From Cenococcum geophilum (Eukaryota): 64,000 nt of DNA. Both the position numbers and the translations under genes were made by a program. Where the stretch lies: NCBI GenBank assembly GCA_050273025.1, contig CP158635.1, positions 11,780,001-11,844,000 of the forward strand, in the 5' to 3' direction. Position 1 is the stretch's first letter. Every line of letters begins with the position of its first letter. The notes beneath the pieces are model-generated. The model did no database searches and was not told the DNA's origin. It saw nothing but the letters and a program-made list of their open reading frames with translations. This document shows, piece after piece, positions 41,343 to 64,000 of this stretch.

Positions 41343-42783
41343 TAATATCTTCCTTCTTCTTTATTTTTGCCAAAGTTCTATCTATTAGTCTCTTCCGTAA
41401 CGCCCCTAATATAATTAAAAAGGTTCTTACCGTTAATTTTATTTTAAAGGCTTCTAGAATAAGCACTTAATTATTAAGGTCTATATATAAGGGTACTTTT
41501 GGTCCCTTACTCGGCTACATCCCGGGAGCTCTCAGGGGCTGCCAAGGCTAGCCTTCGGCTAGGCCTTGGCTACCCCTTATAAGCTCCTCGGGCTTGCAGC
41601 CTCCTTCCTCCCCCATCGGTTCGTCTCTGTACTTAGGCTATTGCCTACCCTCATTACCATATCGTCCTCTTCCATCAACTCCCTATGTGACTCATGCTCG
41701 GCTTGCCTGCTCCCTACCGTACACCCTGGCAATACTGCCTTACACTATATTATTAAACTTATTAAGGAACTCTACTAAGGCCTTTTCTAGAGGTAGCTTT
41801 TAACTAAAAAGCTCTTACATAGCTCTAATCTCTTTTAATATTAGCTCTATAGTCTCTCCTAGTAGGTTCTTTATCCGTTACCTATTTCTAGGTTACTAAC
41901 GCTTTATATCTAGTTTATTTAATATAGCAGCTCGTTTAGCAGCGCGTTTTCTTATAGCTAGTAAAGACTTTTAAGTAGGCGTTAATGAAGGCGTATAATA
42001 AAGGCTTAGGCCTACTAAGGACGACGATTATTAACTAGAAGGTGTAGTAGAGCGATTATTTAAGGAAATATCACTAGCTAATAAAGCTGACTGACGCTGT
42101 TTTATAAAAGATTAAGGTTTATCCTTATTAGCTACCTTATCGCCTTCCTTATTATAAGACTTATCCTCCTCGCTCCTGCCGTCCTATATAGTAGCAGCGC
42201 TTTCCTCCTCTATTAGCGTAGGATTAATTGGCGGCCCATTCTCCATTTAATTAAGAGCTTTATTAACTATAAGAGTATAGTTACCCGTTGTAACTACGCC
42301 TTAAAATAGCTTATTAACCTACTTTAGGAAAGGCGGCGGAGCGTCTTAAAACTTCGCGGCGTTAGGATTGGCTTTAAAATATCTATCTATAACATCTTTA
42401 GAGGCAACTGGTATACCTTTATTATTGTCCTACCCCTAGCTAGATTAATTATAGAGCTCCTTCTACGCCTTCTAATCCCTTTTTTAACTATTATGCTTAC
42501 TTTTAAGCTGCCGTATAGTAATTAAATATCGAGTCTTTGCCTATACGGCGTCTAGAGCTATTTACTAGCCTTCTTTCTTATACAAGCTATTTGCGCGGAG
42601 CCCTTTCCAAACAGCCTCTACTAGGCCTTTAATCATAGCTTCTTCTATTTCATAAGTCCAGCTAATACGCTGTTTCTTTATAGTTACTTGGCGAGCCGTG
42701 GGCTGTATATAAAGGGGCGGAGGGCGCGAGGAACATAGTATATGCGCATTAGTGGCAGAAGTAGGGGTGGTAGTTATTAACAA
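41343..42783 (-). pseudogene. Harbinger Myb/SANT-like DNA-binding protein, interrupted by a solo LTR
   Basis: KQRISWTYEMEEAMIEGLVEAV.KGLRADSSYKKEGW..QLKSKHD..K.DWKAWKEL..S.WGWD (ORF 42565..42783 and continuation). Confidence 0.8.
41486..41744 (+). mobile_element. Solo LTR of family F
   Basis: 259 bp, homologous to 55806-56063 and 58291-58548; TSD CTATA at 41481-85 and 41745-49. Confidence 0.95.
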
Positions 42784-44974
42784 TATAGTAATAAGACACC
42801 GAAATAAGGAGCTGGTAGTAGAGGTTCGGTAGTAGGTACGTTTTAGCAGAGGATTAATTAATGTGGGCAGAAGACGTCGCTAATTTTAAGCCTCATCTAA
42901 GGCCTTTTTAGAACGATCAACCGAACAGTCGGCTTCATTTCAGATTGAGTACGACTACCAGATTAAGCGCCACTAATTATCTACTAATTGACGCCGGCGA
43001 AAGCACAGATCAACGTCAGATTGAAAAAGCTCCAGATTGCAACCGAACACGCCCTAAGCTAGCGACTGCCAGTGGTTTAGGTTACTCGATGGTGAATATT
43101 TTTTTGGTCTTGGATTTGCTAGCAATTTTTCCTCGAGACTGCGTTCTATAGTTAATGCTGGGATAAAGAATCCCATAGGGTATGCCTTGTGGTGTACGTA
43201 TAGCACTATCGCTATTCGATGGTTCTTTGACACGGGTTGTCTAGTGAATGTAATTCGACCGCTTTGGATGATCGGATAATGGAAGCTTGCCCCCATCTTT
43301 GTGCCGCCGAGATAGCAGAAGGACTCTTTACCACTAGTCCATATATTCGGCGGTCTATCTGTATAAGTCCAAGTCGTTACACATGGCCATGTCGATCACT
43401 AGTTTGGTCCATTCCTTCGGCCCGTCAAACAGTTTTGCGCCACGGAAACGCTTTTAGTGGAGTGTGAAAGGAGCGGAGGAAAAGACCAAGGTCGGATGCG
43501 ATACGCATGGCTTTTGCTTCCCTGGTATGGGCTTGGTGATGCTTTGTCCACTTGACTGATGAGCACTCCGCGGCTAGAGAAGAAGTGACTGACGCCGTTT
43601 CCCTCGCATTGGATGTACTCCAGAAAGTGCACGATACACAAGAATGGAGAGGAGTGGAGTGAGTGCTTCGATTGTATCTGGTGGCCTGAGTTCGGCGACC
43701 TGAGCTAGCCTGGAAGGTCTAGACTGCAGTCTCAATTGGGCCCTGGCTCACCGATGTTAGCTTAAATCATGTCATTATGCAAGGCCCTAGGTATGCTGGA
43801 GTCTCTTTCTGTGTAATAATTTATGATCAGAACTTGAAAGGAGCTGGCGAGTTGCAGTTGCGGAATGCAGAAAAATTAGGGATGTGTTTAAGATTTCAAG
43901 ACATTTCCTATGAGAGCACCACGATGAGCCGAGAGACTTATGAAATGTACAAGCGAAGAGGTTACTGTAATAGGCAAGCTCTCACGAGAGGACCGCCATC
44001 AGCTTACAGTATGAGAGCCATTAGTTTATCCCAACATTGACGCGCGCCGTGTGGTGGAGCTGAAATGGAGCGAACGGTTCAATGAAAGATAATCTTATCA
44101 ATCCCGGTATTCTAGACCGAGGGGTTGGATGTGGCTTTGGACTCAGCTAGACAAGGATTAGAAATTGCATGGAACGGGGCGTGAAACAAACAAACTTCGT
44201 TCTCGCGTTTCACCGCCCCTAGATTGAAGCGAGATACAAAATCGGCAGGTGGCTGGTTGGGAGTGGATGGTAGGTAAGAATGAATAAGGCTGGCTAGAGC
44301 GGCACAGTGGGCTGATAATTGATTCATTGCATTGCAGGGTACTGCAGCATTTTCGTGGTGGCTCAGCGCATTACTCTTTGCCACGTTCTGTCGACAGCTC
44401 TAGCCACGCCGCCATCAGTTTTTCCAGAGTTGCGCAAGTGTCAATGCAACGAAGCCCCGTTCAGCTGCCGCGTACGTTCCAAGAGAAGCTAGAAAGATGA
44501 AAAATAGAAAAGTATGGGCTAGCTCCAGCGGCGCAGGGCGATGATGTCGCAGCGGTGCCTCTGCCCTGAATAATCCCTCACTTGACGCCACGTAAGCTAC
44601 TTGACCGCGGTTTGCCAACGAAGCTTGGTTGAGCTTAGAATGACTTATTGGGCAGCTAAGCAGGCATCCTCAAAGCTTGGGTGGCGCGGCAAGAGCTTGG
44701 AGAGCTTGGAGAAGGCCGAGCTTACCCCAATCAGGGATTTATTCGCCATGTGGGGCTGTGTTGGCTCGCATTGATGCGATCGGGCAGGGCTCCCTTGCAA
44801 AACGTGCATCACTAGTGGCTGTATTTGTGAACACACATTGGCTACGTTGTTGGTGGGGTTTGCGGGTTCAGGGCCTGCTGAGACGAAGTTGCAGGCAGGT
44901 GCGTTGCAGGCAGGATTTCCTGAAGGGCTGAGGACCGAGGGGGGCCGCAAGTAGATAAGGGGCGCTTCACTCGC

Positions 44975-45168
44975 TTTAAACCTGCTTTCTGACTCCACCT
45001 CCACATCAACAACCTCCAACTCATCAACAAACAACAACTTCTTCTTCGAGCCAGCCCTCAATCACTCTACAAGTAAGCTACTCATAAACCATTGACACAA
45101 TCGTACCAGGCACTGATTCAAAGGCCAGACAACTACCTCACGACCTCAAATCACTCACTTCATTCAAC
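44975..45168 (+). promoter_or_regulatory. Core promoter and 5' UTR with a 56-nt intron (45073-45128) of the CAAX-peptide gene
   Basis: TTTAAA at 44975, C/A-rich leader, GTAAGC donor 45073, ACTGAT branch-like ~45112, CAG acceptor 45126-28, TCAAC-ATG start context. Confidence 0.6.
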
Positions 45169-45285
45169 ATGCCTGCCAGCGCTGCTTCTTCCATTACCTC
45201 CATCGTCAAGCCTAAACCCATCAAGTGCGGCGAGTCCTGTGACTGCTGCGGCTGTGACGAGTCCTGCTGGTGCGTCGTCATGTAA
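45169..45285 (+). CDS. 38-aa Cys-rich CAAX-terminated peptide (a-factor-like lipopeptide pheromone precursor or prenylated metallothionein-like): MPASAASSITSIVKPKPIKCGESCDCCGCDESCWCVVM
   Basis: Intact ATG..TAA, good Kozak context, strongly C/T-ending codons, C-terminal CVVM, AATAAA at 45439-45444, lies in non-RIPped DNA. Confidence 0.8.
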   Translation: MPASAASSITSIVKPKPIKCGESCDCCGCDESCWCVVM

Positions 45286-47256
45286 GGAAATTGAAAGAGA
45301 TACCCGACTTGCGAAGGTTCATCATCGGCGGGCTATTCTATTGGCGGTGGAATACATGGTGGGATACCTGGCGGAACTTGGGTTATGGAGACACTGTCTA
45401 CTTAATCAAATCACCAATTGAGATATACCACCTCTACCAATAAACCCTTCTTTGGAGAACCCTATTTCAAATAATTGCGTCTTCATTTACGAGGTGTGAC
45501 TCAATTGTGACTTCAAAACTTGATGGCCAACATGTCTGACATTACGTCAATATGCCAAGCATAGTAGGCTATCTAATTATCTGCCAAGTGCTTCTTATCG
45601 AAAACCTCCGCTTCCAAGTCGTAATATGAGAGTACCCTAACGGTACCAAATGATCGCAGCAATCGGCCAACTGGTGTCTGTAACTTAGATAGGCTCCTAC
45701 CAGTACAACAAACCAGAAAATAGGCCTTTCTCTTCGCACAGGTTCGCGAAAAGCCGCGGGTGAAGACAGGTGTCAGAGAATCATGTTGACACATTGGTTA
45801 AGACATTATCATTCAATCAACTTCTAAGACTTTTGTTTGAACATTACAAGATTGATTACTTAGTGTTTGCTTCTCTTAACGCTGTTAGCATGTTTTGAAG
45901 CTCAAGATGGCTGGGCGCTTAACAGTGACATATCCGAGCTTCCTCCGAGTCACTTTCTTCGCCATAAAGCTTAATACCATCTTTCCGCAAATAGGCTTAA
46001 AATCAGCTCTTTCTCTCATATTTTCATGTTTTAAGGCTGAAATTACAAAGAAAAAAGAAGGAAAAAAAAGGGTGTGGCTTTTTAGGCACTCTGCCTTTTT
46101 ATACCGTGCAGCTAGGGAGCAAATTGGCAGTCCTCGTCCAGACTCTCCTCAACTACCTTTCAAAACCGCAAGAATGCTCCAACTACCAACCCGACCTCGC
46201 TAGTGTATCCGGAGTCTATGGGCAAGGTGCTGTCTTTGTTTGACTGACTAAATCCGTTGCAGCTCTTTGCCATGACGAATTCGGCGTATTGGAAGAAAAG
46301 AAACTCTACCCTGCGCATTGCTACCAAAGACCATATCGGGAATTGCTGAAACCCTCATGGTATTCCTTATCTATTTCTTGCCGGATATACTTCTATTTGG
46401 ACGTGACCGCGCGCTTCTTTGGCTCGCTAGCGCTAGCTGTCACCGAAAAGATAGTCACAGGTGGAGTGCTAAAAACTACCAGAGCTAGGAGAAACCGGTG
46501 ATCATTTGGAGGTTTCCTGGGGTTTCTATAATAATGGGCTGATATGTGCTTGGCAGTGATATGTGGTAGTTGACGGAGTGATGGACTTGCAGTTTTGCCC
46601 CTTGTCTGGCAAGTTTTGATCAAGCCATCGCTTTTAGTGTAGTCTTGCCGACTCCTATAATGCCTATTCTTTTCAAAAACTATCGAGTGGCAATGAACGG
46701 AGATGTGAATTAGTAAGTGACCTATGCACCGCTAGTCTGAGTTTCGGCGTTGAGGCAGCTGGGTTATTCTTTTAGAGACTTACGTTAGATTTGTGCAGAT
46801 ATTGGTCAGATGGCCTGCTTAAATGTACCTCGACTTAATTAGCACGCTCATGGCACGTATGGTTACTGAAATGCTGAAGATATCTTCCACGAATGCTCTC
46901 TACAAACTCAATTGGTGTCGTTTCCCCGGCCAGGATCCAGACAGTAACTCTTGGCAGTAACTTTGCTGTCCGAATCTTCTGCCAAGTTTCATTCTGCCAG
47001 TGCAAAATTAGTGGCTTAGAGCTTATTTTTTAGAGTTGTAGCTTAATTTAGCACGGTCTACCCCTAGAGGTACCTCCTCTATGCCTTGATATCTGTTGAA
47101 CGGACAATAAGGATTAGGACCCCGTCTATTAAAGAGGGCTCTAGAAGCTCTCTATATACATTAGGTAGGTCCAGGCAACTGAGACAAAATAGGTAATGAG
47201 ACGTTCGATGAGACGTTTAGTCATAAGTTAAGAGACAACTAAGACAAAGTACGTAA

Positions 47257-47788
47257 GGAAGTGTTCGGTTCGGGGTTCAGAAGCGATCTGGAGCTCCAAT
47301 CTGATCTGGAGGCGGGTGTTCGGTGTATCTGGCGACTTTTCAATCTGAAGCTCCTCCAGATCGGCAAGCGCGTCAAATTCGCACGCCATACCGTATATAG
47401 TAGTTGAACTGAAGCTCTTGGCGTCAGATCAATAAGGAGCCCTCAGTTTCGGTTCCAGATTCTAGATTGAATCTGAAGCTCTGCTCGTGCATGCGCCCAA
47501 TCGTCCACCCTACCCAGTATGCCCCCACCACCCCTCCCACCGACGATATTGCTGCTGCAGTTGCAGGCCCTATGCGACGTCTGGGTGAGTGGTGATTAAT
47601 GTGCAGAGACTTCGCTAATTCTAATTTTCATCTGAGGCTTTCTAGAGCGCTCAACCGAACACTCGGCTTCAGATCAGATCGAGTACGACTACCAGATCAA
47701 GCGCCGCTAAATATGTACTAGTTGACGCCGGTGAAAGCACGGAGCAACCTCAGATTGAAAAAACCTCAGATTGCAACCGAACACTCCC
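47257..47788. mobile_element. Tourist-like Harbinger MITE (532 bp) nested in the MULE
   Basis: 14-bp TIRs GG(A/G)AGTGTTCGGTT, TAA on both sides (47254-56, 47789-91); last ~195 bp homologous to 42858-43054. Confidence 0.92.
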
Positions 47789-47899
47789 TAAATATGATCT
47801 GGGTCGACAATATCCCGGCGCCTTTACGTCTTTGTGTCTACATCTGTCTCTACGCCTCTCTACCTAACCTCCCATAAGACGTGCAAAGAAACGCACAAG

Positions 47900-48255
47900 G
47901 AGACACTGGCAGAGATAGGGCAGAGACACGGACAGAGACACGGGCAGAGCCACGAGCAGAGCCACGAATAGAGGGAGGAGTAAAGAGAGAAGTAAAGAGA
48001 AGTAAAGAGAGAAATAAAACGGGCAGTCGAGATAGGAAAGTGGGTCGGTGGGGGTGAGTCTAGATAAACAATGCGCAGTTAATCTACAGGGTAAATTAAG
48101 GCTTAGCTTTAATATTCCCTTTCTAGACACCCCTTTCTGCCTCTACGCCTCGCACCTCTGCTCGTAGTTCTACTCGTGGCTCTACTCGTGGCTCTGCTCG
48201 TGGCTCTGCTCGTGGCTCTGCTCGTGGCTCTGCTCGTGGCTCTACTGCCCGTATC
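47900..48255. repeat. 12-bp tandem repeats in inverted arrangement (AGAGCCACGAGC / GCTCGTGGCTCT)
   Basis: Purine-rich 12-mers at ~47900-48015 and ~7 complementary copies at 48156-48245. Confidence 0.85.
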
Positions 48256-51200
48256 TCGCCCGTTGCTCACTTATATAAAAAGAGAGACACGTAGAAAGAG
48301 ACGCGTAAGGGAAAACGCGTAAAGCATAAGAAAGAGTAAAAATAGATACCGGGAAAGCTAAAATAGGCCCCGAGTAGTGTCTTGGCATCTTTTACCTGAC
48401 CAAAAGATTTGGACAGTAAAGTTACTGCCAAGAGTTACTCTCCGGATCCTGTCCGTCGTTTCCCCATGCCACAATCATAAAGGTCTTCTATCACGGTAAA
48501 GTTCTTTGAAACCGGCTATCGATATACCTGATTTTAAGCTCATTCATATTTAGTCGCCACGCTATACAAGCGACCAGTATGCCGCATAAATCTGCATTGA
48601 TTCTTAACTCAACTATGTAGATTGCGTAGTTAAGCAGAAGTTTCAATTTCTGTCAATAGTACCGCCACTACAAAGCTTGAGCTTCCCGCCAAGCTGCCCG
48701 AGTTTTCGTACCACCCAGTATTTCCTCGTCTTTAACATCCTAGATTTATATAGAAAAACTCTCAAAATAACAGTTGGAATTCCGTCTTTAATAACCAACT
48801 TTAACAATACATGCTGCAAAGTTATTTCGCTCCGGTGTCAGCCTGTCGATCCAGGTCGGGTTTTGGGACAACTTTCCCTACCACCGTCTTACTACTATCT
48901 CGGTCAGCGACTCGGTCAGCGGCTCGGTCACCAAGATAGTCTACTGTCCCTTCTTCTTATGCATACATAGAGGCTACAGAGCCACATTCAATAGACAGAG
49001 TTCTTATTCTTTTCTTATAATCGGTGCACGGACTACCAATTAACAGTTATAAGCCTGGGTGACTTGCCATATTATACCTATTGATTTAATTAATCGAACC
49101 TCTTATTAAATACTTTATTCGTCTTTGCAAGCACCTCTTAATATAACTTCTTAACCTACTCAAGCTATTACTATAATGGTAATATTATTGAGCTAAGCTA
49201 ATGTGAGGTGAGGATGTGGATAGGGAGTCCAATGATAGAACAATAGGTATATTGTATAGACAGAGACGAATCCTTAAAGGAAAAGGAGGAGTCTGTGTGC
49301 GAGGTAGGAAGGGTTTTCCCTAGGCACGTGCTCTGCACGTGCCTTACGGGCGAGTTACCCCTGGGTTGCCCTAGGGTCGCCCGTATCTTGCGGCTATATA
49401 ACTATCTACTTAGGTTTTACCTAACAATGCCCCCTCCTTTAAAAAGGGTCGTCCCCAATCCTTTATATACTTAAGCCTTAATAAAACCCTATAAAAAACC
49501 TTAGTAAGGAAAAAATTTAGAGGGAAAAAAGCGTTTTAATTTTGCGTATGGAGAGATAGGTAGTACATATACGCGGCGCGAAGATGTTAAGGAACTTTAA
49601 CCGGCGGTTAAAGTTATCTAATTAGTTAGATTTACCTTACTAAGACTCCCCCGCATTTAACTAAGCTAGTAGTAATTTTATATACCCGGTATAGAAAATC
49701 CTAATTAGTTTATTTAATAGGTAGAGCTAATAGAGCTTAATACTATTACCTAAATTTGGTAGACTAGAAGTATTCTAAAAGCTTACTTATATAGGTAGGT
49801 TGCTAGTACCTTATAGGTTAGTTATAGGTTATTTACATATAGCTAGATTTATAGACGGTAAGGCTATATACCTATTAAATCCGCCGCTAACCCTGCTTTA
49901 GCCTTATACTATACCGGCGTAGCGCTATATATACTTCGCGGGTAGGTTATAGGTTACTTATATATAGCTAGGTTTAGGACGGTAAGGCTATATACCTATT
50001 AAATCCGCTACTAGCCTATACTTTAGCCTTACGCGTTATCTATATAGTATATATATAGAATAGTATAAGTTATTAGTATAGGTTGTTACTAGTAGGTTAC
50101 TAGTAGGTTATAAACCCTAGTTAAATAGACCTCGGTTATAAATAGGCCTATTCTCTAATATATAAATAATCTGCTTAGCTAGTATAGAGTAATAGACTAG
50201 GTCTAGAAAGGGTGCTTTTTAAATTAAGCTTTATTGCTAGTATATACTATAGCCTTACTAGTATCGCCGAGTTATATTAGAGTGTAGCTTATATAGGATA
50301 TTAATAAATTAAAACTTTACCCTATATATACGCCGCAGTTCTTATAGCAATTATTACTTATTTTTTAATCCCTTAGGATATCCTCTACTTCGCTTTAATA
50401 TAGGTTATATTTTAATAGTGGCGCTTACTTTTCGCCTACGCTTTAGCTATAAGGCTAGGGTATTCCGCTTATAGTACTTATCTAATAGTTATTAACAATT
50501 CTTAAGTTCTATCTTATATTTCTATTTATTATACTAATTTAGCCATCCTAGCTATTTAATAAGGTACTGTGGTTATCTAGTATAATCCTAGTAGGCGATA
50601 ATTGCTTCTACTTCCTAGCTACCTTCCTTAAGCTCTTTTACTACTAGGGGTTAAAACCTAGGGCGTAACCTATAAGGCTCTAGTAGGGAGATATAAAAGA
50701 CTAGGTAAAGCTATACTATAGTAAGTAGGAGCTCTAGCTTATATACTTACTACCCTATACACTCTAAGATCTAAAACGGTCCTATAAACTTATAGTTAAG
50801 CTTTTTATAGGGACATTTTATATAGATATTCTTAGAGGAGAGCAGGACTTATTTACCAACGGCGAAGTGCTTGGCTAGGTAGTAACAATTATAGTATTTT
50901 ACCTAAAGCTTTTAGGCGTGCATTATTAACGCCGCCGCTACCTTATATATAAGGCGCAGGCGTTATAAATACGTCTCTATAAGTTAGATATTTATTAACT
51001 TAAACCCCTCCCTACCTTATTAGGCGTCTTAAACGCTGTCTAGAACTCTATTTAGGATGTTTAGTAGCTAGCTATAGGCGAGCTTAATAGGGGAACGCTT
51101 TATTATAGTATAAACCTTAAAGTTATAGGTAAAGGCTGCTTCTTTAAGTAGGGAGGCCTAATTAGACTATTCCTAGTTTATAAGTATATATAGGTATACC

Positions 51201-54200
51201 TTAAGCTTCTAGTTCTAACGCTCCGTCTAACTATCTATCTATAGGTAGAATGCGGTACTAAGTTTATATTAAACGCGGAGATAGTAGTATATAGTGCTTT
51301 AGTACTCGCTTATAAATATACTACCCCTATTAGAGATAATATTATCTAGAGGCCCTATTTATATAAAGACTCTAAATAAGAGTTCTGCGAGTTATATAGC
51401 ATTAATTATCTTACGCACTAGATAATAGCGCACTAGCTTTATAAAATGGTCTATAAGAATAAGGACGGAGTTATACCCTACGCTATTAGGAGTCTTAAAC
51501 TCTAGGAAATCTATAATAAAGTTAAGTAAATAATGCCGCTAGGCTTAAGTAGGGGCCTAAAGAGGCTATAGCTTACTATAGGGTTTATAATGGCGCGATT
51601 TAGAGCGTTAGTAGGTATTATAATTATCTAGGTATTTATAGAGGTCCTAGGTAAGGCTATTCTAAGTATACTTTTACGCGATTACCTTAAAAGTATGGTT
51701 AAAACTATAGTGGCCGCCTATAGGATCGTCATAATTCCGCTTAAGAATCTCCTATTATAGTAGTATATAATTTAGCACCTAGACCTTATTATTTTGCCTT
51801 AAGAGTCCCTAATTATTAAGGGTATAGTCCTTATTACTAGTAGGAACTTATTCCTAGGTTAACTAATTATATATAGAGCGTATAAAGGCGTCCCTTTTTA
51901 TACTCTATAAATAAAATTAACTAGTAACTTAGGGGGGTATTCTATAAACGCCGTTTCGGCTAAAGCAGTTACTACTACCTCTTACTATAGCACGAGACTC
52001 TACGTAAAGTTAGTGCTAGTAAAGTAATATATAATATATAGGTAACTTGCCGGGTTATTATAGGGGATTATAGCCTAGGCTAATAGGTCTTCCCTAGGGT
52101 TAAGCGCTATTAGGCTAGTTAAAGTAGTCTTAAAGAGAATAGTAGAATACTCTAGTCCGCCGGCGTTAAGTTTATAAGGGTTACTTATATACTATACGCA
52201 TACTACTTACTAATATAGTATAGTAATACTAGGGCCGCCCACAAGGCCTATAACCCGCAAATTTTGCTATAATATAGGTAGTATAGTATTAAGGAGTATC
52301 CTTTTACTACTATCTTTAAAGCTTTTGGTATAATCTAGGCGCTAAAATAGTATATTAGCGGAATTTACTTTACCTAGCTTATATTTAATTTTAAAATTAA
52401 ACTTAGCTAGTTTCTTAGTATACTAGGCCTAGTAAGTAGATAAGCTCTTAGTGGTTATAAAGTACCTAAGATTATTATAATCGCAGAGTACGCGCGTTAC
52501 ATACGCGGCGTATTTAAGGTAATAGCGCCACGTCTTAAAGCATTATACTATAGCGAGTAGTTCTTTATTATACGTATTATACTATACTTCTAGGCTAGTA
52601 AGCTTCTAACTATAATAAGTAATTAGGTGCTAGTAGAGTTAATCTTCTTACCCTAAAGGCTAGAGAAGTATACCGCTATAGGCATAATTAGAAGCGTTAG
52701 TAATTACTATTAGGGGTAAATTAGGGTTAAAGTAGCGAAGTAGAGGAGCCTATATAAATATAGCGCGTAGCTTACGGAACGCCTACTGCGCGTTATTAGG
52801 CTAGGACTAAGGTTAATGCCATTTAGTAGGCCCTTTTAACTTATACTTTTTCTTCTTCTCCCTATCTAACGTTAGGTTATAATATACCTATGCAAAATAT
52901 ATATATAGGGGGTATACGGTATCTAAGTAGTTTTAGATAAATTACTTATAGAAGTTAGTAAAGCTAAAGAAGACCTAGATATCCTTATAGGGCTTAGGCT
53001 TAGGCTATTCCTTAATAGCTTTTACGCGGTTAGGGTCTATTATAATACCCCTAGGGGTAATAATAAAGCCTAGGAACTTAACGTTCTTAATATAAAAAAT
53101 ATATTTTAATAGTTTGGCGTATAGGCCCTAAGTATAGAGCTATTATAGTACGTACTTAACGTACTTAACGTACTTATCCTTATTATTTAAGTAGATAAGA
53201 ATATTATCTAGGTAAACTATATAGATAGTATTTACTAGGGTTTCTAGAGCTTTATAAATATAGCTCTAAAAAGTTATAGGGGCGTTAGTAAGACTAAAGG
53301 GTATTACTAGGTACTTAAAGTAACTATAGCGTGTCTTAAATACGGTTTTCTATTTATCTCCCTTTTTGATATAAATCCTATAGTACGTATTATAAAGATC
53401 CAGCTTTATAAATATCTTTGCATAGCTAAGCCTATTAAAGAGTTCGCTAACTAGCAGTAAAGGGTACAGATTTTTAATTATAATCTTATTTAGACGTCTA
53501 TAGTTAACGTATAGCCGTATTATACCGTCTGCTTTTAGCATAAAGAGGATAGGCGCTTTAGTAGGCGACTTGCTAGGCCTAATCTAGCCCTTTTTAAGAG
53601 CACTGTCTAGGTACTCTTATAAGATCTATAACTCTTTCTATCAGAGGCTATAGAGGGGTATTTATAGTAGTATTTTACCTTCTTCTAAGTCAATTATATG
53701 GTTATACTTAGGGTTCTATAATAGTATACTTGCTAGCTTATTAAAGAAGATATTAATTTCCTCCTTATATATATCTAATAGGCTAGGGGCTATAGAGGTT
53801 AAAGCAACTATTATATAATAGTGTGCTTCCAGAAGCCAGTAAAGAGAAGGGTGCGGCTAATATACGTTTTATAGGTATACTTGTACTAAGAGTGTATATA
53901 GCTCTACTATAGTATACTTAATAGTTTTAGGGTTTTAATTACCTCCCCCTTATATATAGGTAATCTACGCTAGCACTGGAGGGTCTCTATAGGTACTTGC
54001 TACTAGTAACGGCAGGTCCTTTACTATATTTAGAACCGGTATCTCTATATTTAGAGGGTCTGTATAGGTACTTACTACCAGTAATAATAGGTCCTTTATT
54101 ATATTTATAACTAGCATAAAGAAGGGGTCTTCTAGCTATAGCGAATAGACTATTTCGCTAGCCTTAATGTTTACTAGAAGAGTATTAAGGGTAACTATTT

Positions 54201-55805
54201 AGAGGCGTCTAGGGTCTAAAGTACCTAAATAAACTATCTAAAACGGAAGCTAATTAATAGATCTACTTCCGCAAGCTAATCCTATTTAAAAACTATATTA
54301 TAACTATTAAATAAGCCGCCCTAAAAGGTCTGCGGGCTAATAGTACGAGGGGTACCCTAGAAGTCACTAGTGGTAACTATTAAATTATAAGCGTCCTAGA
54401 TTATTATCTAGTTACTATTAAGGAAATATATAATAAGTTTATATAAATATAGCGCGTAGTATGTAGGTAGGTTAAACCTATAGACGATATCTTAATTAAT
54501 AAGGTTAATTTAGCACCTATTATTATATAAAGTATATAGGCGGACTTTACCCTAGGGCGTATTTATTACGACGTATACTATAATACGTTTCTTCTCTCCC
54601 TTTATATTAGGCCCTAGTTATAGTTAAAAGAGATACGTTACTAGGGCTTTAGGTTTTCCAAAGCCTAAGCTAACTTCTCTTTATTAGCCTACTTCTAGTA
54701 TTCCTTATAGTAGCCGCCTCGGTCCTTTAACTTACCTACGTAGTACTAGCGCCTGGGGGGTCCCCTAAGCCATCTAACTTTTAGGTAATCTCCCTAGGAG
54801 TTTACTTAGAAAAGCGTTGCCCTTTTTAGGTTTTATTCCCTAAGCCTAACTCTATAAAGCCTATACTGCGACCGCGTTTTATACGCAATAATTTGCCGCT
54901 ACTACTTACGCGATCTTCTATAAGCTTTATGGTGTTAAGCAATTACTCTACACAGCGGATTTCGTTAAAGAGGTCTTTAGCGGTTCTTACCTATTGGGCG
55001 AAGTTCTAGCGGAAGAGCTTTACTTATAGGTGGACTAGGAAATATAAGAACTAAAAGTCTACCTATTGTTTAGGATTAATAAAAGGGGTATATAAGAAGA
55101 GGTCCTTTAAGCTACGTATATAGGCTAGGAAGACGTTAAACCTCTAGTTCTCCTTTATAACAGCCGTATAGTATATTATAGTGTTATTAAAGCGTCTTAC
55201 TATAGGGTTCCTAATCTAGTCTTAGACTATAGTCTTAAACTTATCCTATAGTAAAGGACCCTTATCCTTAGTGCCTAACCGGCAATAAACTAGTTAAGTA
55301 ATTGTCTTCTCTTTTATAAGACCTTTAATGGCCTAGCACGTGCGTCGCTTACAGTTATAGTTAGCGTTATTAACCTTACTAAATTAGTTCTTAATTGCGG
55401 CAATCCACCGGTTAAAATACTGTTAAGTAGTACCGCTAATATTAGGTAGTGACTTCTTAACTAGGGTATTAAGATTTAATCGACGTATACGTTCGCTATA
55501 TAACTTATACTCTTTACTAAAGAGGTAACGGAAGGGCTTTATTAAATTAATAATGCTCTATAAGTTGGCTATTTTCTTAGCTAGCTTATCTAGCTCCTTT
55601 ATATTAGCGGTATTAGGTAGGACGCTAGTAACCTTACTAAGCTCCTATTAAGCCTAGGTATATAAATTAAACTAGTCTTTAGCGTTCGTAGATGTCTAAT
55701 CATTTTAAGATTTAGAAAATAGCTTAGATGCTGCTAGTATACTTCTAGCGGTTTCGTTTACACTAGATCCTAAGGCGTTCTGCGGTTATATCGCCAGCGT
55801 ATTAC

Positions 55806-58548
55806 TGTAAGGGTTATTTTGGCCCTTACTCGGCTGCATCGCCTAGGGGCTCTTAGGGGTCGCCAAGGCTAGCCTTTGGCTAGCCCTTGGCACCTCCTTA
55901 TAAGCACCTCGGGCTTGCAGCCCTTCCCTCCTCATCGGTTCGTCTCTGTACCTAGGCTATTGCCTACCCTTATTACTATATCGTCCTCTTCCATCGACTC
56001 CCTATGTGACTCATGCTTGGCTTGCCTGCTCCCTACCGTACACCCTGGCAATACTGCCTTACATTCGAACCGATCCTACACCCTTGCGGGTGGTAGCCTG
56101 CAGCAAGCTGAGGGCTGCGCCCTTGAGCAATTTCACGATCCTCTATTTTTACCTAGGACGATCGCGTTTACTGCGACACAGCAGGTACACCAGCAGACGC
56201 CTGGCAGATCGCATCCGCATATAAAGGTTCATTGGAATACGGATCGAGTCCTCTACCTTACCTAGGACGATCGCGTATGCTGTAGAGCAGCTACACTAGC
56301 AGACGCCTGGTAGATCGCATCCGCATATTACGGTTGGTAGATATAGATTAGGAGAAAAAAGGAATTCTTAATCCTTTCCCTTTTACCTAGGCCGATTAGT
56401 TCACTGTAATAAGTAGGTATACTAGCAGATATCTGGGATCGCGTCTGCTAATAACGGTTATGGAATACGGATTAGAGAAGGGAGACCAGATCGGACGCGA
56501 TCACCTCCTAAGGAGACTGGTAACGCTCTCTAGGCCAACCGCGGTTTACTCGCGATAGAGGTCCCACTAACAGAGATTGGAAGGTTGAACGTCCTTAAAA
56601 GAGATGCAAAGAGCTACGGCTCTTAGATCGTTCGCGATCGCTTAAGGGCTACGGCCCGACCCGGAGACTCTCCGGCTGTCAGCCTGAGGGCTGCCGAGAC
56701 TAAACTGTAGGCGGTTGTCTCTTAGAGCTACGGCTTACCTCGAGCTTCGGCTTAAAGATCCTACGCGATTAAGCTTGTAAATACTTAATAGGTTAACCAC
56801 GGTTTACTCGCAACAGAGGTCCTACTAATAGAGGTTGGAAGGTTGAACGTCCTTAAAGAGATGCAGCTACCCTGGAGGCTATCTGATTGCTATTTAATGG
56901 CTATCCGAAGAACTGATGGCTAGTTTTTAAAGCTACAGCTACTACCATGCGCTTCCAGATTAAATGTAATTAAGGGCTACTGCCTAATTAGCCATAGAGC
57001 TGCCGAGACTAAATCGAAAGCGATTGTCTCTTAGAGCTACGGCTTGTCTTAGGGCTACTGCCTAATTAGCTAAAGGGCTGCCGAGACTAAACCGTAGGCG
57101 GTTGTTTTTCATTAAGCTACGGCTTACCTTAAGAGCTTCGGCTCAGAGATCCTATGTGATCTTATAAGCTACTGCTTGCTTTAAGAGCTACTGCTCTTAG
57201 ATCGTTCGCGATCGCTTAAGGGCTACGGCCACCCGGAGACTCCGGATACCAGCCATGGGGCTGCCGAGACTTAATCGTACGCGATTGTCTCTTCTAAAGT
57301 TATAAGCTCAGCTTATGAGATCCTATTGCGGTTAAATGCCATCCTTAAGCTATAGCTACAGCTTTAAGAGCTACGGCTCATTGAGATCGTAGGTGGTCTC
57401 GTAAGCTACTGCTTGCCTTAAGAGCTACGGCTCGTCCTTGAGCTACGGCTTAAAGATCGTACGTGATTATCTTTCGGCAAGGCTTTGGTTGCTCTAAGAG
57501 CTCTAGCTTGTATTAAGAGCTACAGCTTGCCTAAGAGAATGGCAGCAGCTTAAAGATTGTACGCGATCATCTTTTGGCAAGGCTTTGGTTGCTCTAAGAG
57601 CTCCAGCTTGCATTAAGAGCTACAGCTTGCCTAAGAGAATGGCAGCAGCTTAAAGATCGTACGCGATTATCTCTCTGTAAGGTTTTGGTCGCTCCAAGAG
57701 CTCCAGCTTGTATTAAGAGCTATAGCTTGCCCAAGAGAATGGCAGCAGCTTAAAGATCCTACGCGATCTCTTAGCAAAGCTTTAGTTGCTCTAAGAGCTC
57801 CAGCTTGCTTTAAAAGCTCATAAGACCCTATTACGGTTAAATACCGATATCTCTCCGAACCCCTTCCGGGACGAGCCCTCTATAATCTCCCGCTACCGCA
57901 AGGTAATGGAGGGGGCTGACCGCAAGAAGGGGGGGGGGGTAATGTAAGGGATATTCTTGCGATCAAGCCGGCTCCAAGTGGAGACTATCTGGCTGTTAGC
58001 CATAGAGCTGTCGAGACTTAATCGCAGGCGATTGTCTCTTCAAGACTGATCGTATACGATCAAGTCTTACCCCACTAGCAGACGCTCTTTTCCTACCTAA
58101 AATAGGCCCTTTTTCCCACTGGGTTTTGGCTATAGGTTAAGGTTTTTATCAAGGCTGCTTAGCTAGTCCTTTTCCCCTATTTCTTTATTCCCCTGTATAA
58201 GCAAGGCTTCTGCACTGCTTACCTTTCTATATATAGAATTAATCTATTGGGATACGGGCTGGGGGCCAGCCCTAACCAAGGGGGGGGCAATGTAAGGGTT
58301 ATTTTAGCCCTTACTCGGCTGCATCGCCTAGGGGCTCTTAGGGGTCGCTAAGGCTAGCCTTTAGCTAGCCCTTGGCACCTCCTTATAAGCACCTCGGGCT
58401 TATAGCCCTTCCCTCCTTATTGGTTCGTCTCTGTACCTAGGCTATTACCTACCCTTATTACTATATTGTCCTCTTCTATTAACTCCCTATATAACTTATA
58501 CTCGGCTTACCTACTCCTTACTATATACCCTAGCAATACTGCCTTATA
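55806..58548 (+). mobile_element. Non-autonomous, non-coding LTR retroelement F (TRIM/LARD-like, 2.74 kb)
   Basis: 258-bp LTRs 55806-56063 and 58291-58548, TSD ATTAC (55801-05, 58549-53), PPT aagggggggg before the 3' LTR, repetitive interior with no gag/pol. Confidence 0.93.
56064..58290 (+). ncRNA. Putative highly structured RNA interior of element F (hairpin arrays)
   Basis: Many RRGC-T(A/T)CG-GCYY, GATCG-NNNN-CGATC and GAGAC..AATCG-NNNN-CGATT.GTCTC hairpins inside ~97-120 bp higher-order repeats. Confidence 0.5.
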
Positions 58549-59164
58549 ATTACCGTTAGGTATAGGCGTCGGTTTTCTTTTTAGAGGCATTATAGAAAAA
58601 TTAAACCGGCTATCCTCTTAAGGGGATTAGTAAGGATTTAAATGTAAGGTAAAAATATAGATAGGGAGTCTAATAATAGAACAATAGGTATATTGTATAG
58701 ACAGAGACAAATCCTTAAGGGAAAAGGAGGAGTCTGTATATAAGGTAGGAAGGGTTTTTCCTAAGTATATATAGAGCACGTACCTTATAGGCAAGTTACC
58801 CCTAAGTTGCCCTAGGGTCGCCTATACCTTACGGCTATATAATTATTTACTTAGGTTTTACCTAATAGCTAATTAGGACGAATAGATTAGCCTTATTAGG
58901 CTTTAAGCCTAATTAGAAGACGTATAGAAATATATTAACCCCTTAACTAAAAAGAATAAGTTATTCTAATTAATTAAACTAATCTTTTCTAGGCCTTAAG
59001 ATATAAAGCTAGGAATAACCTTATATATAGCTCTCTTTAAGAATAAGAAGGACAAGCTTTAAATTCTCTATAAGAGGTATAAGATAGTAAAGAAGGAATA
59101 TAAGAAGTAGAAGGCAGCTTTAACCTCCCTATAAAGCTATATTACTAGTATAGTAGTTAGAAAC

Positions 59165-59955
59165 TATTATAGGACACCCTCGTAACACCTTACACACGTC
59201 TACCTATTTCTACTAACTTAGCAATTAAAAACTAATCGCGAAATAGCAATTTAATGGCAATCTAATGGCAATCTAACGGCAATTTACGGCATTCTACTAT
59301 ATTTTACTAAGTTCTACTAAATTCTACTAAGTTCTGCTATGACTATAACCTAAACCCTATTCTACCCTATATACGTATTAATTAAGTAACTAAGTTAATA
59401 ATATATACCCTTTCTTCTTGTTTTTCTACCTTCTTTCCTTATATAACGTCTTAACCTCCTTATACAGTTTATATATATAGCTTAATAATATCTACCTTGC
59501 TATATATTATCGCCGCTTATACTTACTCCGTAACACTATATTATGTTAACTTTATATACCATCTCCAAAATACAGAACAGCCCTAAAGCCCCTATAACGG
59601 CCGCTGGTATTATATTTACACTCTAAGAATAACTAGTAGAAATATAAAAGTCTTTTATAAACGCCCTTATATAAAACTAAGCTACTCTAAATTAATAATA
59701 AGCTAAATAAGAAGCATAATACTAGCAATTAATTAAGGACCTCTAAGAAGAAATCCTTAAGACTAAACACTATCTCTAGAGATAAATACGCGGAACGCGA
59801 GCCCTAAACCTATATCAACTGTCTACCTTAAACCGACTACTATACTAAAACAATCTAAATAACTACTAAATCCCCTAGTATTTACTAGTAAATAATAAAA
59901 ACTCTAATTATTTTTAAGCTAGCTTAAAAATAAGCTAACTTATAACGCTAACTGT
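59165..59955 (+). mobile_element. LTR retrotransposon G, 5' LTR (59165-59535) and gag start, interrupted by A'
   Basis: RIPped TGTTACGG...CCGTAACA termini, internal 11-bp and 10-bp tandem repeats, followed by a gag-like coiled-coil ORF. Confidence 0.65.
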
Positions 59956-62900: not shown

Positions 62901-64000
62901 ATATAAAATGCATAAGAATCTAAAGGAAAAGAATCGGAAATACCTTATAAGGATATATTAGATAATAGATAAACAATAATATAGAAATGCTAAGTATATA
63001 TATAGATAGCATCTAGCAGAAGTTTAAGAGGAAGGAAATTTAATACTTTAACTAGAAAGATTTCTTATAGAAAAATGCTTAGACGGATAATAGTAGTAGG
63101 AATGCCTAAAGAATATATGTCTATAGTATATTAAAGATAAAAAGCGAACTAGGTATTAGCTAAAGAGTAAGCTAAGTATAATAGGATTAAGCAGCTAATA
63201 GTTAGGAAAAGTAGAGGCCTATAGGACTAAAGGGAGCTAGTAGTAGAGCCTTAAACCCTTAAAGGAATTTAAGGATAACACCTAAATTTAAGAGTTAATT
63301 AGTAAGATTAGTAGTTTAAAGCGCTAATAGATAGTAGAGTAACGCGGAACTATATCTTACTAGCAGTAGTTAAGAGAATGGGATTACCTTATAGATAGAA
63401 GGAATAACCTTACCTATTAGTTATAATTTTAGAAGATCTAATAGCCTATAGAGAAGGGATTATTAATATTAAAACAGGACCTATTTAAATAATTATTAAA
63501 GAAAAACGAATTAAGACGTCTTTTAATATCCTACTATTAGAACGGGATAAGGCAGTATTAGGTATGCCTTAGTTATAGAAATACAATCTAAGGATTAATT
63601 AAATTATAGGTTAAGTTAATATTAGAAATACTTAACGCTATAAGATGCAATAGTAAACTAAGTTAGTATAGTACTAAGTTAAAGTAATATATAAAGAGAT
63701 TAAGCGAGGCTTAAGTTATATACTAAAGAGATACTATAAGTATAGCAAGAAACTATAGAGCCTAAAAAGTAAAAAGCTGGTAGATTATATAGTATAGGAC
63801 TATAAGATAGAGTTAGAACTAGGAATAAGTCTAAGGTTCTTCCTAACCTATAAGCTTACTTAAGAGAAGGCGAGCGTACTTAAAGAGTTTGTCTAGGAGA
63901 ACTTATGAAAGAGATACATTAGACTATTATAGTTATTAATAGGTTATCTAGTACTATTTATACTAAAAAAGAATGGAAAGCTTAGGTTATATATTAACTA
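59956..64000 (+). mobile_element. Second copy of gypsy family A (A'): 5' LTR, gag, protease, start of RT; runs off the window
   Basis: LTR 59956-60375 homologous to 40042-40438; Zn knuckle ~61411-61452; protease region with LGMPWL..NP.IDW ~63558-63603; 63895-64000 aligns with 23470-23577. Confidence 0.9.

What the first reader, a model, noticed from the sequence alone, without database searches (positions are those of the whole stretch)
45169..45285. Unannotated 38-aa Cys-rich CAAX peptide: a-factor-like pheromone / metallothionein hybrid candidate
Seen: MPASAASSITSIVKPKPIKCGESCDCCGCDESCWCVVM*, below the ORF-track cutoff, with a 5'-UTR intron, CAAC-ATG context and AATAAA, and no signal peptide. 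Established: ascomycete a-factor-class precursors are tiny, begin with an MP-S/T/A-rich leader and end in CAAX (Neurospora MFA-1 ends CVVM). They are farnesylated, exported by Ste6-type ABC transporters, and remain unidentified in many Pezizomycotina lineages. Unusual here: seven Cys in the last 19 residues with an internal duplication (CGESCDC / CDESCWC), like a metallothionein or a multi-palmitoylation tail. It is either a new Cys-rich lipopeptide pheromone class or a membrane-anchored metal-binding micropeptide.
Basis: partly seen in the sequence, partly recalled or inferred. Interest (0 to 1): 0.88.

Follow-up and report, generated by a model that had tools for sequence, protein, structure and literature searches.

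The report
Cysteine-rich CaaX micropeptide gene, putative a-factor
This is a real, spliced and strongly transcribed fungal gene for a 38-residue cysteine-rich peptide with a lipid-attachment tail; it belongs to a family published in 2023 as the possible missing mating pheromone of another fungal class, and its true role has not been tested.

Summary
The ORF is exactly as described (45169-45285, +). RNA data show a + strand transcript and removal of the predicted 56-nt 5'-UTR intron 45073-45128. The ATG is the first AUG of the mRNA.

The peptide is conserved. 15 of 18 phmmer hits and 42 of 45 metagenome loci encode a 30-41 aa peptide with the same leader and Cys block. In the loci a stop follows directly after C-a-a-M. 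Divergence from the window is mostly synonymous (pS 0.43-0.78, pN 0.07-0.15). All named relatives are Dothideomycetes and are annotated as hypothetical.

By eye, the leader (SAASS..S.IVKP), KCxE.CD, CC and C[VT]VM match the Leotiomycete "putative a-factor" of Wilson et al. 2023. So this is not a new class. It is an apparently unpublished Dothideomycete branch of that family.

It is most likely a farnesylated lipopeptide precursor of the a-factor type (about 45%). A lipid-anchored, metal- or palmitoyl-bearing micropeptide that stays in the cell is a serious rival (about 30%). No metallothionein family matched.

The parts
44975..44980 (+). TTTAAA, a possible TATA-like element about 30 nt upstream of the main 5' read pile
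   Evidence: Sequence. X21 reads pile up at 45008 (15 molecules). The promoter role is an inference.
45008..45072 (+). Exon 1, 5' UTR only. The 5' end is approximate, and RNA contigs reach back to 44967.
   Evidence: X21 depth rises from 5 to 99 across 44969-45050. The contigs of X8 and X14 begin matching at 44967.
45073..45128 (+). 5'-UTR intron, 56 nt, GTAAGC...CAG
   Evidence: a joint from 45072 to 45129 that skips 56 nt (GT..AG) is seen in contigs of X2, X8 and X14 and in 133 X21 reads. A strict GTAAG..YAG pattern starts 63-98 nt upstream of the ATG in 24 of 42 related loci (pattern only, no RNA evidence).
45129..45400 (+). Exon 2: the rest of the 5' UTR, the CDS and the 3' UTR. The main 3' end lies at about 45360-45420.
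   Evidence: X21 molecule ends at 45359 and 45396. X2 depth falls from 67,310 to 4,814 to 579 across 45338-45460. Contigs of X8 and X14 run on to at least 45800, where X14's depth is lower (1,446 against 11,500).
45169..45285 (+). CDS of the 38-aa precursor, stop TAA included
   Evidence: Conserved. Purifying selection.
45169..45225 (+). Leader MPASAASSITSIVKPKPIK. It holds the conserved S7, K14 and P15 and a spacer of variable length before C20.
   Evidence: Alignments A1 and A2. The same motif appears in the published Leotiomycete peptides (compared by eye).
45226..45273 (+). Cys block CGESCDCCGCDESCWC. C20, C24, C26, C27, C33 and C35 are invariant. C29 is variable.
   Evidence: The residue at -6 from the CaaX Cys is C in 35 of 43 peptides, I in 6, M in 1 and F in 1.
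45271..45282 (+). CaaX box CVVM (C35 is the predicted farnesyl acceptor), followed directly by the stop
   Evidence: CVVM 22, CTVM 13, CIVM 4 and CVIM 4 of 43 peptides. The stop codon varies (TAA 32, TAG 6, TGA 4 of 42 loci) but its position does not. Farnesylation itself is inferred.
45439..45444 (+). It lies downstream of the main 3' end.

Best explanation
The gene encodes a CaaX-processed lipopeptide precursor. It is the Dothideomycete branch of the Cys-rich family that includes Botrytis BCIN_13g03330, the 'putative a-factor' of Leotiomycetes.

**Shown here**
- It is a real, spliced mRNA on the + strand.
- Its first AUG opens a 38-codon frame.
- That frame is under purifying selection and always stops right after C-a-a-M.

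**Inferred pathway**
1. Cys35 is farnesylated.
2. VVM is removed and the new C-terminus is methylated.
3. The conserved leader is cut off.
4. The Cys-rich farnesyl peptide is exported by a Ste6-type ABC transporter, without a signal peptide.
5. It acts as an extracellular lipopeptide signal on a Ste3-type receptor, as bona fide a-factor precursors do.

Family membership is about 0.9 likely. The pheromone-type function is about 0.45.
For: - **Transcript and splicing:**
- **First AUG of the mRNA:**
- **Homologues in the protein library:** 15 of 18 phmmer hits are homologues, and 11 of those 15 end in C-a-a-M.
- **Metagenome loci:** 42 of 45 carry a complete 30-39 aa ORF that ends in C-a-a-M plus a stop.
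- **Selection:** against the loci in the same register, pS is 0.43-0.78 and pN is 0.07-0.145.
- **Conservation peak:** the CDS is the best conserved segment in 36 of 37 distant loci.
- **Size and layout:** a 19-aa leader, a 16-aa core and aaX. By my recollection this resembles S. cerevisiae MFA1/MFA2.
- **Resemblance to Sordariomycete a-factors:** the start MPASAASS and the end CVVM resemble N. crassa and S. macrospora MPSTAAST...GYCVVM (supplement text, by eye).
- **Resemblance to the Leotiomycete family:** SAASS-ITSIVKP against SAASSTISSIVKP gives 11 of 12 aligned residues identical with one gap. KCxE.CD, CC and C[TV]VM are also shared (by eye).
- **Literature gap:** Wilson 2023 states that no a-factor gene was known in filamentous ascomycetes outside the Sordariomycetes.
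Against: **From Wilson 2023 (passages), on the Leotiomycete homologues**
- 11 of 12 species without a functional STE3 still keep the gene.
- Conservation across genera is unusually high for a pheromone.

- The leader is the part best conserved between classes. That is odd for a pro-region that is thrown away.
- Five invariant non-CaaX Cys are not explained by the model.
- A profile search found no Leotiomycete protein at E up to 10. The link to that family therefore rests on comparison by eye.

**From earlier notes of this scan (unchecked)**
- They report other CaaX pheromone candidates in Dothideomycetes: triple-CaaX precursors and a syntenic spliced CaaX gene. If these are real, they compete for the a-factor role.
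Confidence: 0.45

Rival explanations
1. The peptide is an intracellular lipid-anchored micropeptide. It is farnesylated at C35 but stays on the cytosolic face of membranes. The upstream Cys are either palmitoylated, as in Ras-type anchors, or hold a metal-thiolate or redox cluster. That would make it a membrane-tethered metallothionein-like buffer or sensor.
For: - Six invariant Cys form CxC and CC motifs with invariant G21, E22, G28 and E31.
- SC-x-C-aaX is the same arrangement as the palmitoyl/farnesyl tail of H-Ras (recalled, not tested).
- RNA is abundant in material with no evident mating context.
- The Leotiomycete homologues are expressed independently of mating type and are kept where STE3 is lost (Wilson 2023).
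- Conservation over two classes fits a housekeeping role better than a mate-recognition role.
Against: - No Pfam family matched, metallothionein families included, at E up to 10.
- Trp precedes the CaaX Cys in 35 of 43 peptides. By my recollection that is atypical for metallothioneins.
- One Cys (C29) is replaceable by I, M, F, A or L.
- A conserved cleavable-looking leader plus a spacer of variable length is not needed for a simple anchor.
- No paper describing such a fungal protein turned up: the one paper holding all four terms (metallothionein, farnesylated, CaaX, fungus) is an autophagy review, seen in the listing only.
Confidence: 0.3
2. The peptide is exported as a farnesylated lipopeptide, but its role is non-mating or structural. 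It could act in hyphal adhesion or conglutination, in self-signalling, or in host or partner interaction, rather than as a mate-recognition ligand.
For: - Wilson 2023 cites work in which N. crassa a-factor acts as a conglutination factor and its loss affects vegetative growth, and in which Fusarium oxysporum uses pheromone-pathway components outside mating.
- RNA is abundant in fungus-labelled metatranscriptomes, and a root-labelled one holds the stretch.
Against: There is no direct evidence. This reading shares all the untested export steps of the main explanation.
Confidence: 0.12
3. The ORF is a chance frame in a non-coding or otherwise functioning transcript.
For: It is very short, and no other coding gene lies in the 8-kb island.
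Against: - The frame, the start and the exact stop position are kept in 42 loci with 30 distinct DNA sequences among 43 CDS.
- Changes are mostly synonymous.
- The CDS is the conservation peak of the locus.
Confidence: 0.01

Closest known systems
Leotiomycete 'putative a-factor pheromone' (Botrytis cinerea BCIN_13g03330 and homologues in 111 species; Wilson et al. 2023, PMC10569646)
   Same: - A tiny protein without an evident signal peptide.
- The leader motif SAASS(T)IS.IVKP.
- K-C-x-E-(x)-C-D followed by CC.
- A C[TV]VM end directly before the stop.
- Five non-CaaX Cys.
- High expression outside mating.

All sequence comparisons were made by eye from the text.
   Different: - The Leotiomycete peptides are 45-64 aa and carry about 15 extra N-terminal residues (MCTS..LVNRNGPG).
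- Their Cys block is C-x2-C-x4-CCC-IPIP-C, with a GY/GF motif.
- Here the peptide starts directly at MPAS.
- Here the block is C-x3-C-x-CC-x-C-x3-C-W-C, with an internal 7-residue repeat and no IPIP.
- 'CWC' and 'CDCCG' occur 0 times in their S10 file.
- No Leotiomycete protein reached E 10 in the profile search.
Sordariomycete a-factor-type precursors (N. crassa mfa-1, S. macrospora ppg2, P. anserina and others)
   Same: - The MP-S/T/A-rich start (MPSTAAST against MPASAASS).
- An aromatic residue directly before the CaaX Cys.
- An identical CVVM or CTVM end.
- Tiny size.

Sequences were read in the supplement text.
   Different: They are 21-24 aa and have no Cys other than the CaaX Cys. Their function as pheromones has been tested (recalled). 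That has not been done for this family.
S. cerevisiae MFA1/MFA2 a-factor precursors
   Same: A 36-38 aa precursor laid out as leader, mature part and CaaX, with export independent of a signal peptide (recalled).
   Different: There is no sequence similarity beyond the layout. The mature yeast peptide has a single Cys.
Fungal copper metallothioneins (for example the N. crassa Cu-MT type)
   Same: Small size, seven Cys and CxC motifs (recalled).
   Different: - No Pfam match.
- Trp and several acidic residues are present.
- A CaaX tail and a 19-aa Cys-free leader are not metallothionein features.
Ras-type hypervariable C-terminal anchors (farnesyl plus palmitoyl)
   Same: The S-C-x-C-a-a-X arrangement at the extreme C-terminus (recalled).
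   Different: There is no GTPase domain. The anchor-like tail is nearly the whole protein.

Membership tests
BCIN_13g03330-type Cys-rich CaaX peptides (Leotiomycete putative a-factor) | At most 100 aa, with a C-terminal CaaX/CPAX directly followed by the stop | tested here: met
   The definition is given in Wilson 2023.
BCIN_13g03330-type Cys-rich CaaX peptides (Leotiomycete putative a-factor) | S/T/A-rich leader with SAASS.IS.IVK(P) | tested here: met
   Window residues 4-15 against the published sequences: 11 of 12 aligned residues identical with one 1-residue gap. The comparison was by eye, not computed.
BCIN_13g03330-type Cys-rich CaaX peptides (Leotiomycete putative a-factor) | Gly-Tyr (GY) motif near the C-terminus (87 of the Leotiomycete peptides) | tested here: not met
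   There is no GY in the window peptide or in alignment A2. An aromatic W or Y sits before the CaaX Cys instead.
BCIN_13g03330-type Cys-rich CaaX peptides (Leotiomycete putative a-factor) | Statistically significant sequence similarity | tested here: inconclusive
   The A2 profile search returned 9 hits and no Leotiomycete protein at E up to 10 in a 5.8-billion-sequence database. A direct profile-profile comparison was not run, because the published sequences were not held as session proteins.
a-factor-class lipopeptide mating pheromone precursors | Small precursor with no signal peptide and a C-terminal CaaX | tested here: met
   The absence of a signal peptide is judged by reading the sequence only.
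a-factor-class lipopeptide mating pheromone precursors | Farnesylation, aaX removal, carboxymethylation, N-terminal cleavage and Ste6-type export | not testable with these tools
   Inferred from the CaaX box with M at the X position.
a-factor-class lipopeptide mating pheromone precursors | Activates a Ste3-type receptor; expression controlled by mating type | not tested
   No data here. For the Leotiomycete homologues, Wilson 2023 found no dependence on mating type.
Metallothioneins | Match to a metallothionein family profile | tested here: not met
   0 Pfam families at E up to 10. The only PDB profile hit is a spider toxin at E 0.091.
Metallothioneins | Metal-thiolate cluster formation; induction by metals | not testable with these tools
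   Needs biochemistry or expression series under metal treatment.

The most novel reading that the evidence does not exclude
The family may not be a pheromone at all. It could be a previously unrecognised class of farnesyl-anchored micropeptide with a Cys cluster (metal-thiolate, redox or multi-palmitoyl). Such a peptide would be conserved across at least Leotiomycetes and Dothideomycetes and very abundantly expressed, and it would have been provisionally mis-assigned as 'a-factor' because it shares the CaaX tail and an S/T/A leader.
Probability: 0.25. Interest if true: 0.8.

Novelty: new member of a known kind. Interest (0 to 1): 0.55.

Why it matters
The lipopeptide (a-factor-type) pheromone gene was reported only for Sordariomycetes and, as a putative candidate, for Leotiomycetes (Wilson 2023). 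My searches found no paper on one in Dothideomycetes, and no paper mentioning PTRG_09598.

This gene gives Dothideomycetes a concrete candidate that is conserved and expressed. That class contains many crop pathogens and symbionts. The candidate is hidden in public annotation as 'hypothetical protein', misnamed, or fused to a neighbouring dehydrogenase.

The gene also sharpens an open question. If the Cys-rich form is present in both Leotiomycetes and Dothideomycetes, there are two possibilities:
- The ancestral a-factor was Cys-rich and Sordariomycetes simplified it.
- The family does something else, and the true a-factor is still missing.

Both possibilities can now be tested with a 16-residue synthetic peptide and one knockout.

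Tried and rejected
- the 38-aa query was too short. I repeated it with the 40-aa in-frame reference.
- no whole genome is held for this window, so copy number, the MAT locus, Ste3, Ste6 and other CaaX genes could not be checked.
I did not try to recover the Leotiomycete proteins in any other way.

**Searches that gave nothing useful**
- the profile search found only Dothideomycete-type members.
- the ESM Atlas best hit scored 0.81, a 56-aa Ascomycota 'hypothetical protein' cluster. That is below the level that counts as evidence.
- there is no solved relative.
- AlphaFold2 on alignment A2 gave mean pLDDT 49.5 and no secondary structure, so no fold search was made.
- I used a neighbouring 351-aa ORF of L038 to name the taxon of the 'MNSTTSS...CG[IM].ESCGC' subgroup. 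It returned only unnamed proteins, so that subgroup's class is unknown.
- there are no earlier notes on this genome or on this sequence.

**Hits and rows set aside**
- P0003, P0004 and P0018 are long repetitive proteins. P0023 and P0035 are unrelated cluster members. All five were discarded.
- the short-chain dehydrogenase that follows the gene in Alternaria-type loci (L023) and is fused to it in the Stemphylium gene model (an Alternaria tenuissima model also joins the two) is not in the window.
- In one search the rows L033, L036, L037 and L044 are one codon out of register in the ungapped comparison (pN about 0.41). I did not use them. They inflate the summed ratio of 0.377.

**Readings rejected or not counted**
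- The antisense ORF 45138-45281 (47 aa) is rejected by the read strand and by the intron orientation.
- Runs X22-X24 carry the same species label as other holders but hold next to none of the words.

Full report
**Observation.** Positions 45169-45285 on the + strand encode MPASAASSITSIVKPKPIKCGESCDCCGCDESCWCVVM followed by TAA. Seven Cys lie in residues 20-35. The two heptads CGESCDC and CDESCWC share 5 of 7 residues and 15 of 21 bases. The start context is TCATTCAACATGC.

**Setting.** The gene sits in a GC-normal island of about 8 kb (41-49% GC, roughly 42000-50000). The rest of the window is 28-37% GC and has almost no long open frames. No other coding gene is evident in the island.

**Transcript.**
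- A k-mer search found 20 run rows in 16 studies that hold at least half of the sampled words. Six are on record as RNA, and all six are metatranscriptomes labelled fungus or root metagenome.
- I laid four runs on 44600-45800. In the raw stranded RNA-seq run X21, 925 of 9,287,142 records read were laid.
- In X21, first mates lie 400-700x on the - strand against 8-11x on the + strand. With a GT..AG intron on the + strand, this places the RNA on the + strand.
- The predicted intron 45073-45128 (56 nt) is removed in contigs of X2 (2), X8 (1) and X14 (1; the tool only guesses that X14 is RNA). It is also removed in 133 X21 reads, where the joint is reported 2 nt to the right (2 letters fit on either side). 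X21 comes from a relative: all 925 reads are 95-99% alike.
- Depth starts near 45008 in X21, while contigs reach back to 44967. Depth collapses between about 45360 and 45420. The AATAAA at 45439-45444 is therefore not shown to serve the main 3' end.
- Contigs of X8 and X14 run on to at least 45800; X14's depth there is lower.
- The spliced mRNA is about 337 nt, and the ATG at 45169 is its first AUG.
- The X21 strain differs in the CDS at three places. Two changes are synonymous (K16, D30) and one is S23A (codons read).

**Conservation in protein collections.**
- A full phmmer pass over 1.84 billion representatives gave 18 hits at E up to 0.001.
- Three of them are long repetitive proteins. The other 15 are homologues with the core MP[AG]S..SS..S.I[IV]KP.P..CGE[SE]C[DE]CCG.[DE]ESC[WY]C..M.
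- 11 of the 15 end in C-a-a-M. The other four are gene models that leave the frame or fuse to a neighbour.
- Upstream extensions differ completely between hits, so they are mis-called 5' UTR.
- Every member that carries a source name is a Dothideomycete: Ascochyta, Pyrenophora, Plenodomus, Stemphylium, Alternaria, Phyllosticta and Macrophomina. Most are called 'hypothetical protein'; others are called 'uncharacterized protein', misnamed 'gluconate 5-dehydrogenase', or fused to such a gene.

**Conservation in metagenome DNA.**
- A metagenome scan gave 45 loci. Of these, 42 carry a complete 30-39 aa ORF that ends in C-a-a-M plus a stop. L029 is cut by its contig end, L028 has a stop after 15 codons, and L045 is spurious.
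- Among the 43 peptides (window included), the CaaX box is CVVM in 22, CTVM in 13, CIVM in 4 and CVIM in 4. The residue before the CaaX Cys is W in 35, G in 7 and R in 1. The Cys at -6 is replaced in 8.
- The 43 CDS comprise 30 distinct DNA sequences and 22 distinct peptides.
- Against the window, loci in the same register show pS 0.43-0.78 and pN 0.07-0.145. Four rows that are out of register were not used.
- The CDS is the best conserved segment in 36 of 37 distant loci. CDS identity is 74-85% in 35 of them. The 200 nt upstream are 46-66% identical and the 200 nt downstream 30-62%.
- Invariant residues in alignment A2 are M1, S7, K14, P15, C20, G21, E22, C24, C26, C27, G28, E31, C33, C35 and V37 (peptide numbering).

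This is a protein-coding gene under purifying selection.

**What it is related to.**
- Wilson et al. 2023 (PMC10569646; I read passages and searched supplement files 6, 7 and 14) state that no a-factor gene had been found in filamentous ascomycetes outside the Sordariomycetes. They propose B. cinerea BCIN_13g03330 and its homologues in at least 111 Leotiomycete species as a putative a-factor.
- The supplement text shows these peptides to be Cys-rich CaaX peptides of the form ...GPGSAASSTISSIVKPE..GKTKC[ILF]ECDG[YFV]ECCCIPIPC[TV]VM.
- By eye, window residues 4-15 (SAASS-ITSIVKP) match SAASSTISSIVKP at 11 of 12 aligned positions with one gap. A Phyllosticta member has an extra residue at that same place. 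K-C-x-E-(S)-C-D, a CC pair and C[TV]VM are shared as well.
- The same supplement lists N. crassa and S. macrospora MPSTAASTKVPQTTMNFNGYCVVM. Its first eight residues resemble MPASAASS, and its CaaX box is identical.
- I did not compute these comparisons, because the published sequences were not session proteins. The A2 profile search did not reach any Leotiomycete protein at E up to 10.
- 'CWC' and 'CDCCG' occur 0 times in the Leotiomycete file, so the Dothideomycete branch is distinct.

**What it is not.**
- No Pfam family matches at E up to 10, metallothionein families included.
- The only PDB profile hit is a spider toxin at E 0.091, which is Cys-composition noise.
- AlphaFold2 predicts no fold (pLDDT 49.5).

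**Mechanism.** A CaaX box with Met at X, kept in 43 of 43 peptides and always followed by the stop, argues strongly for farnesylation of C35, removal of aaX and methylation. That step is inferred, and it is common to all readings. From there two routes are open.

*Route 1, a-factor-type precursor (my best reading, about 0.45).* The leader is cleaved and the 16-residue Cys-rich farnesyl peptide is exported by a Ste6-type transporter. Support comes from:
- the layout;
- the resemblance to bona fide Sordariomycete precursors;
- the spacer of variable length between two conserved modules.

*Route 2, the peptide stays on membranes (about 0.3).* Its Cys would be palmitoylated or would bind metal. 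Support comes from:
- the five invariant non-CaaX Cys;
- the cross-class conservation of the 'leader';
- Wilson's findings that the Leotiomycete homologues are not expressed by mating type and persist in 11 of 12 species without a functional STE3;

**Earlier notes of this scan.** These are unchecked AI notes.
- Three notes reach the same family assignment for related genes in other genomes. I saw them only after I had made the link myself.
- Four notes describe different CaaX pheromone candidates in Dothideomycetes: triple-CaaX precursors and a syntenic spliced CaaX gene.
- I could not test co-occurrence, because no genome is held.

**Novelty.** The kind is published (2023, Leotiomycetes). The Dothideomycete branch appears unpublished. 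Searches found no paper on a Dothideomycete a-factor. One search found none mentioning PTRG_09598. One search found only Wilson 2023 for Bcin13g03330. One search returned only an autophagy review for metallothionein, farnesylated, CaaX and fungus together (listing only). The library lacks most subscription journals. The paper's figure supplements (pptx) and S3 Table were not read, and they could hold relevant detail.

**Verdict.** This is a new member of a known kind, and its function is still open.

Noticed in passing
window 1-41500 and 50000-64000 (except about 56000-58000): Most of the window is 28-37% GC, and only two frames of 150 aa or more are open in all six frames. This looks like degraded, RIP-type repeat sequence. 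The micropeptide gene is the only evident expressed gene in an 8-kb GC-normal island.
   Followed up: partly
window 42904-43057 and 47638-47791: A 154-nt direct repeat (87% identical, 4734 nt apart) brackets the gene. Its translations also resemble each other. It might mark the ends of a mobile or duplicated segment that carries the gene.
   Followed up: no
window 41552-41803 and 55873-56265: Two stretches give near-identical translated frames (...PHRFVSV.RLLPTLITISSSSI.SLCDSC.ACLLPTVHPGNTALH), both at the edge of a GC-normal island. They are probably copies of one repeat family.
   Followed up: no
window 44967 (RNA contigs of X8 and X14): The long RNA contigs carry at least 255 nt upstream of 44967 that do not match the window between 44600 and 44966. 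The first matched piece has 3 mismatches. This could be an alternative upstream exon, a second gene copy or a chimeric contig.
   Followed up: no
window 45195 back to 44997: 12 X21 reads from 8 start points join 45195 back to 44997 ('goes back 199'). Possible causes are a head-to-tail junction (circular RNA), template switching, or a tandem duplication in that strain.
   Followed up: no
L028:117-164: One metagenome copy has a stop after 15 codons (MPASVASSISTIIKP*). It is either a pseudogene or a sequence error.
   Followed up: no
L001 and L032 (contigs with the same metagenome prefix): Two variants occur on contigs with the same metagenome prefix. One is 100% identical to the window. The other has 96% CDS identity (D25G, D30E) and 84-85% identity in the flanks. 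They are either two lineages or two paralogues.
   Followed up: no
public records behind P0010, P0012, P0024 and P0031; locus L023:2337-3098: In Pleosporaceae a short-chain dehydrogenase gene lies just downstream on the same strand. Annotators have named the 39-aa peptide 'gluconate 5-dehydrogenase' or fused it to that gene. The dehydrogenase is absent from the window.
   Followed up: partly
L033-L039, L044; P0016, P0017, P0026: A divergent subgroup starts M[NTKL]STTSS, has I, M or L in place of the seventh Cys, and has G or S in place of Trp (CCG[IM].ESCGC). Its taxon is unknown.
   Followed up: partly
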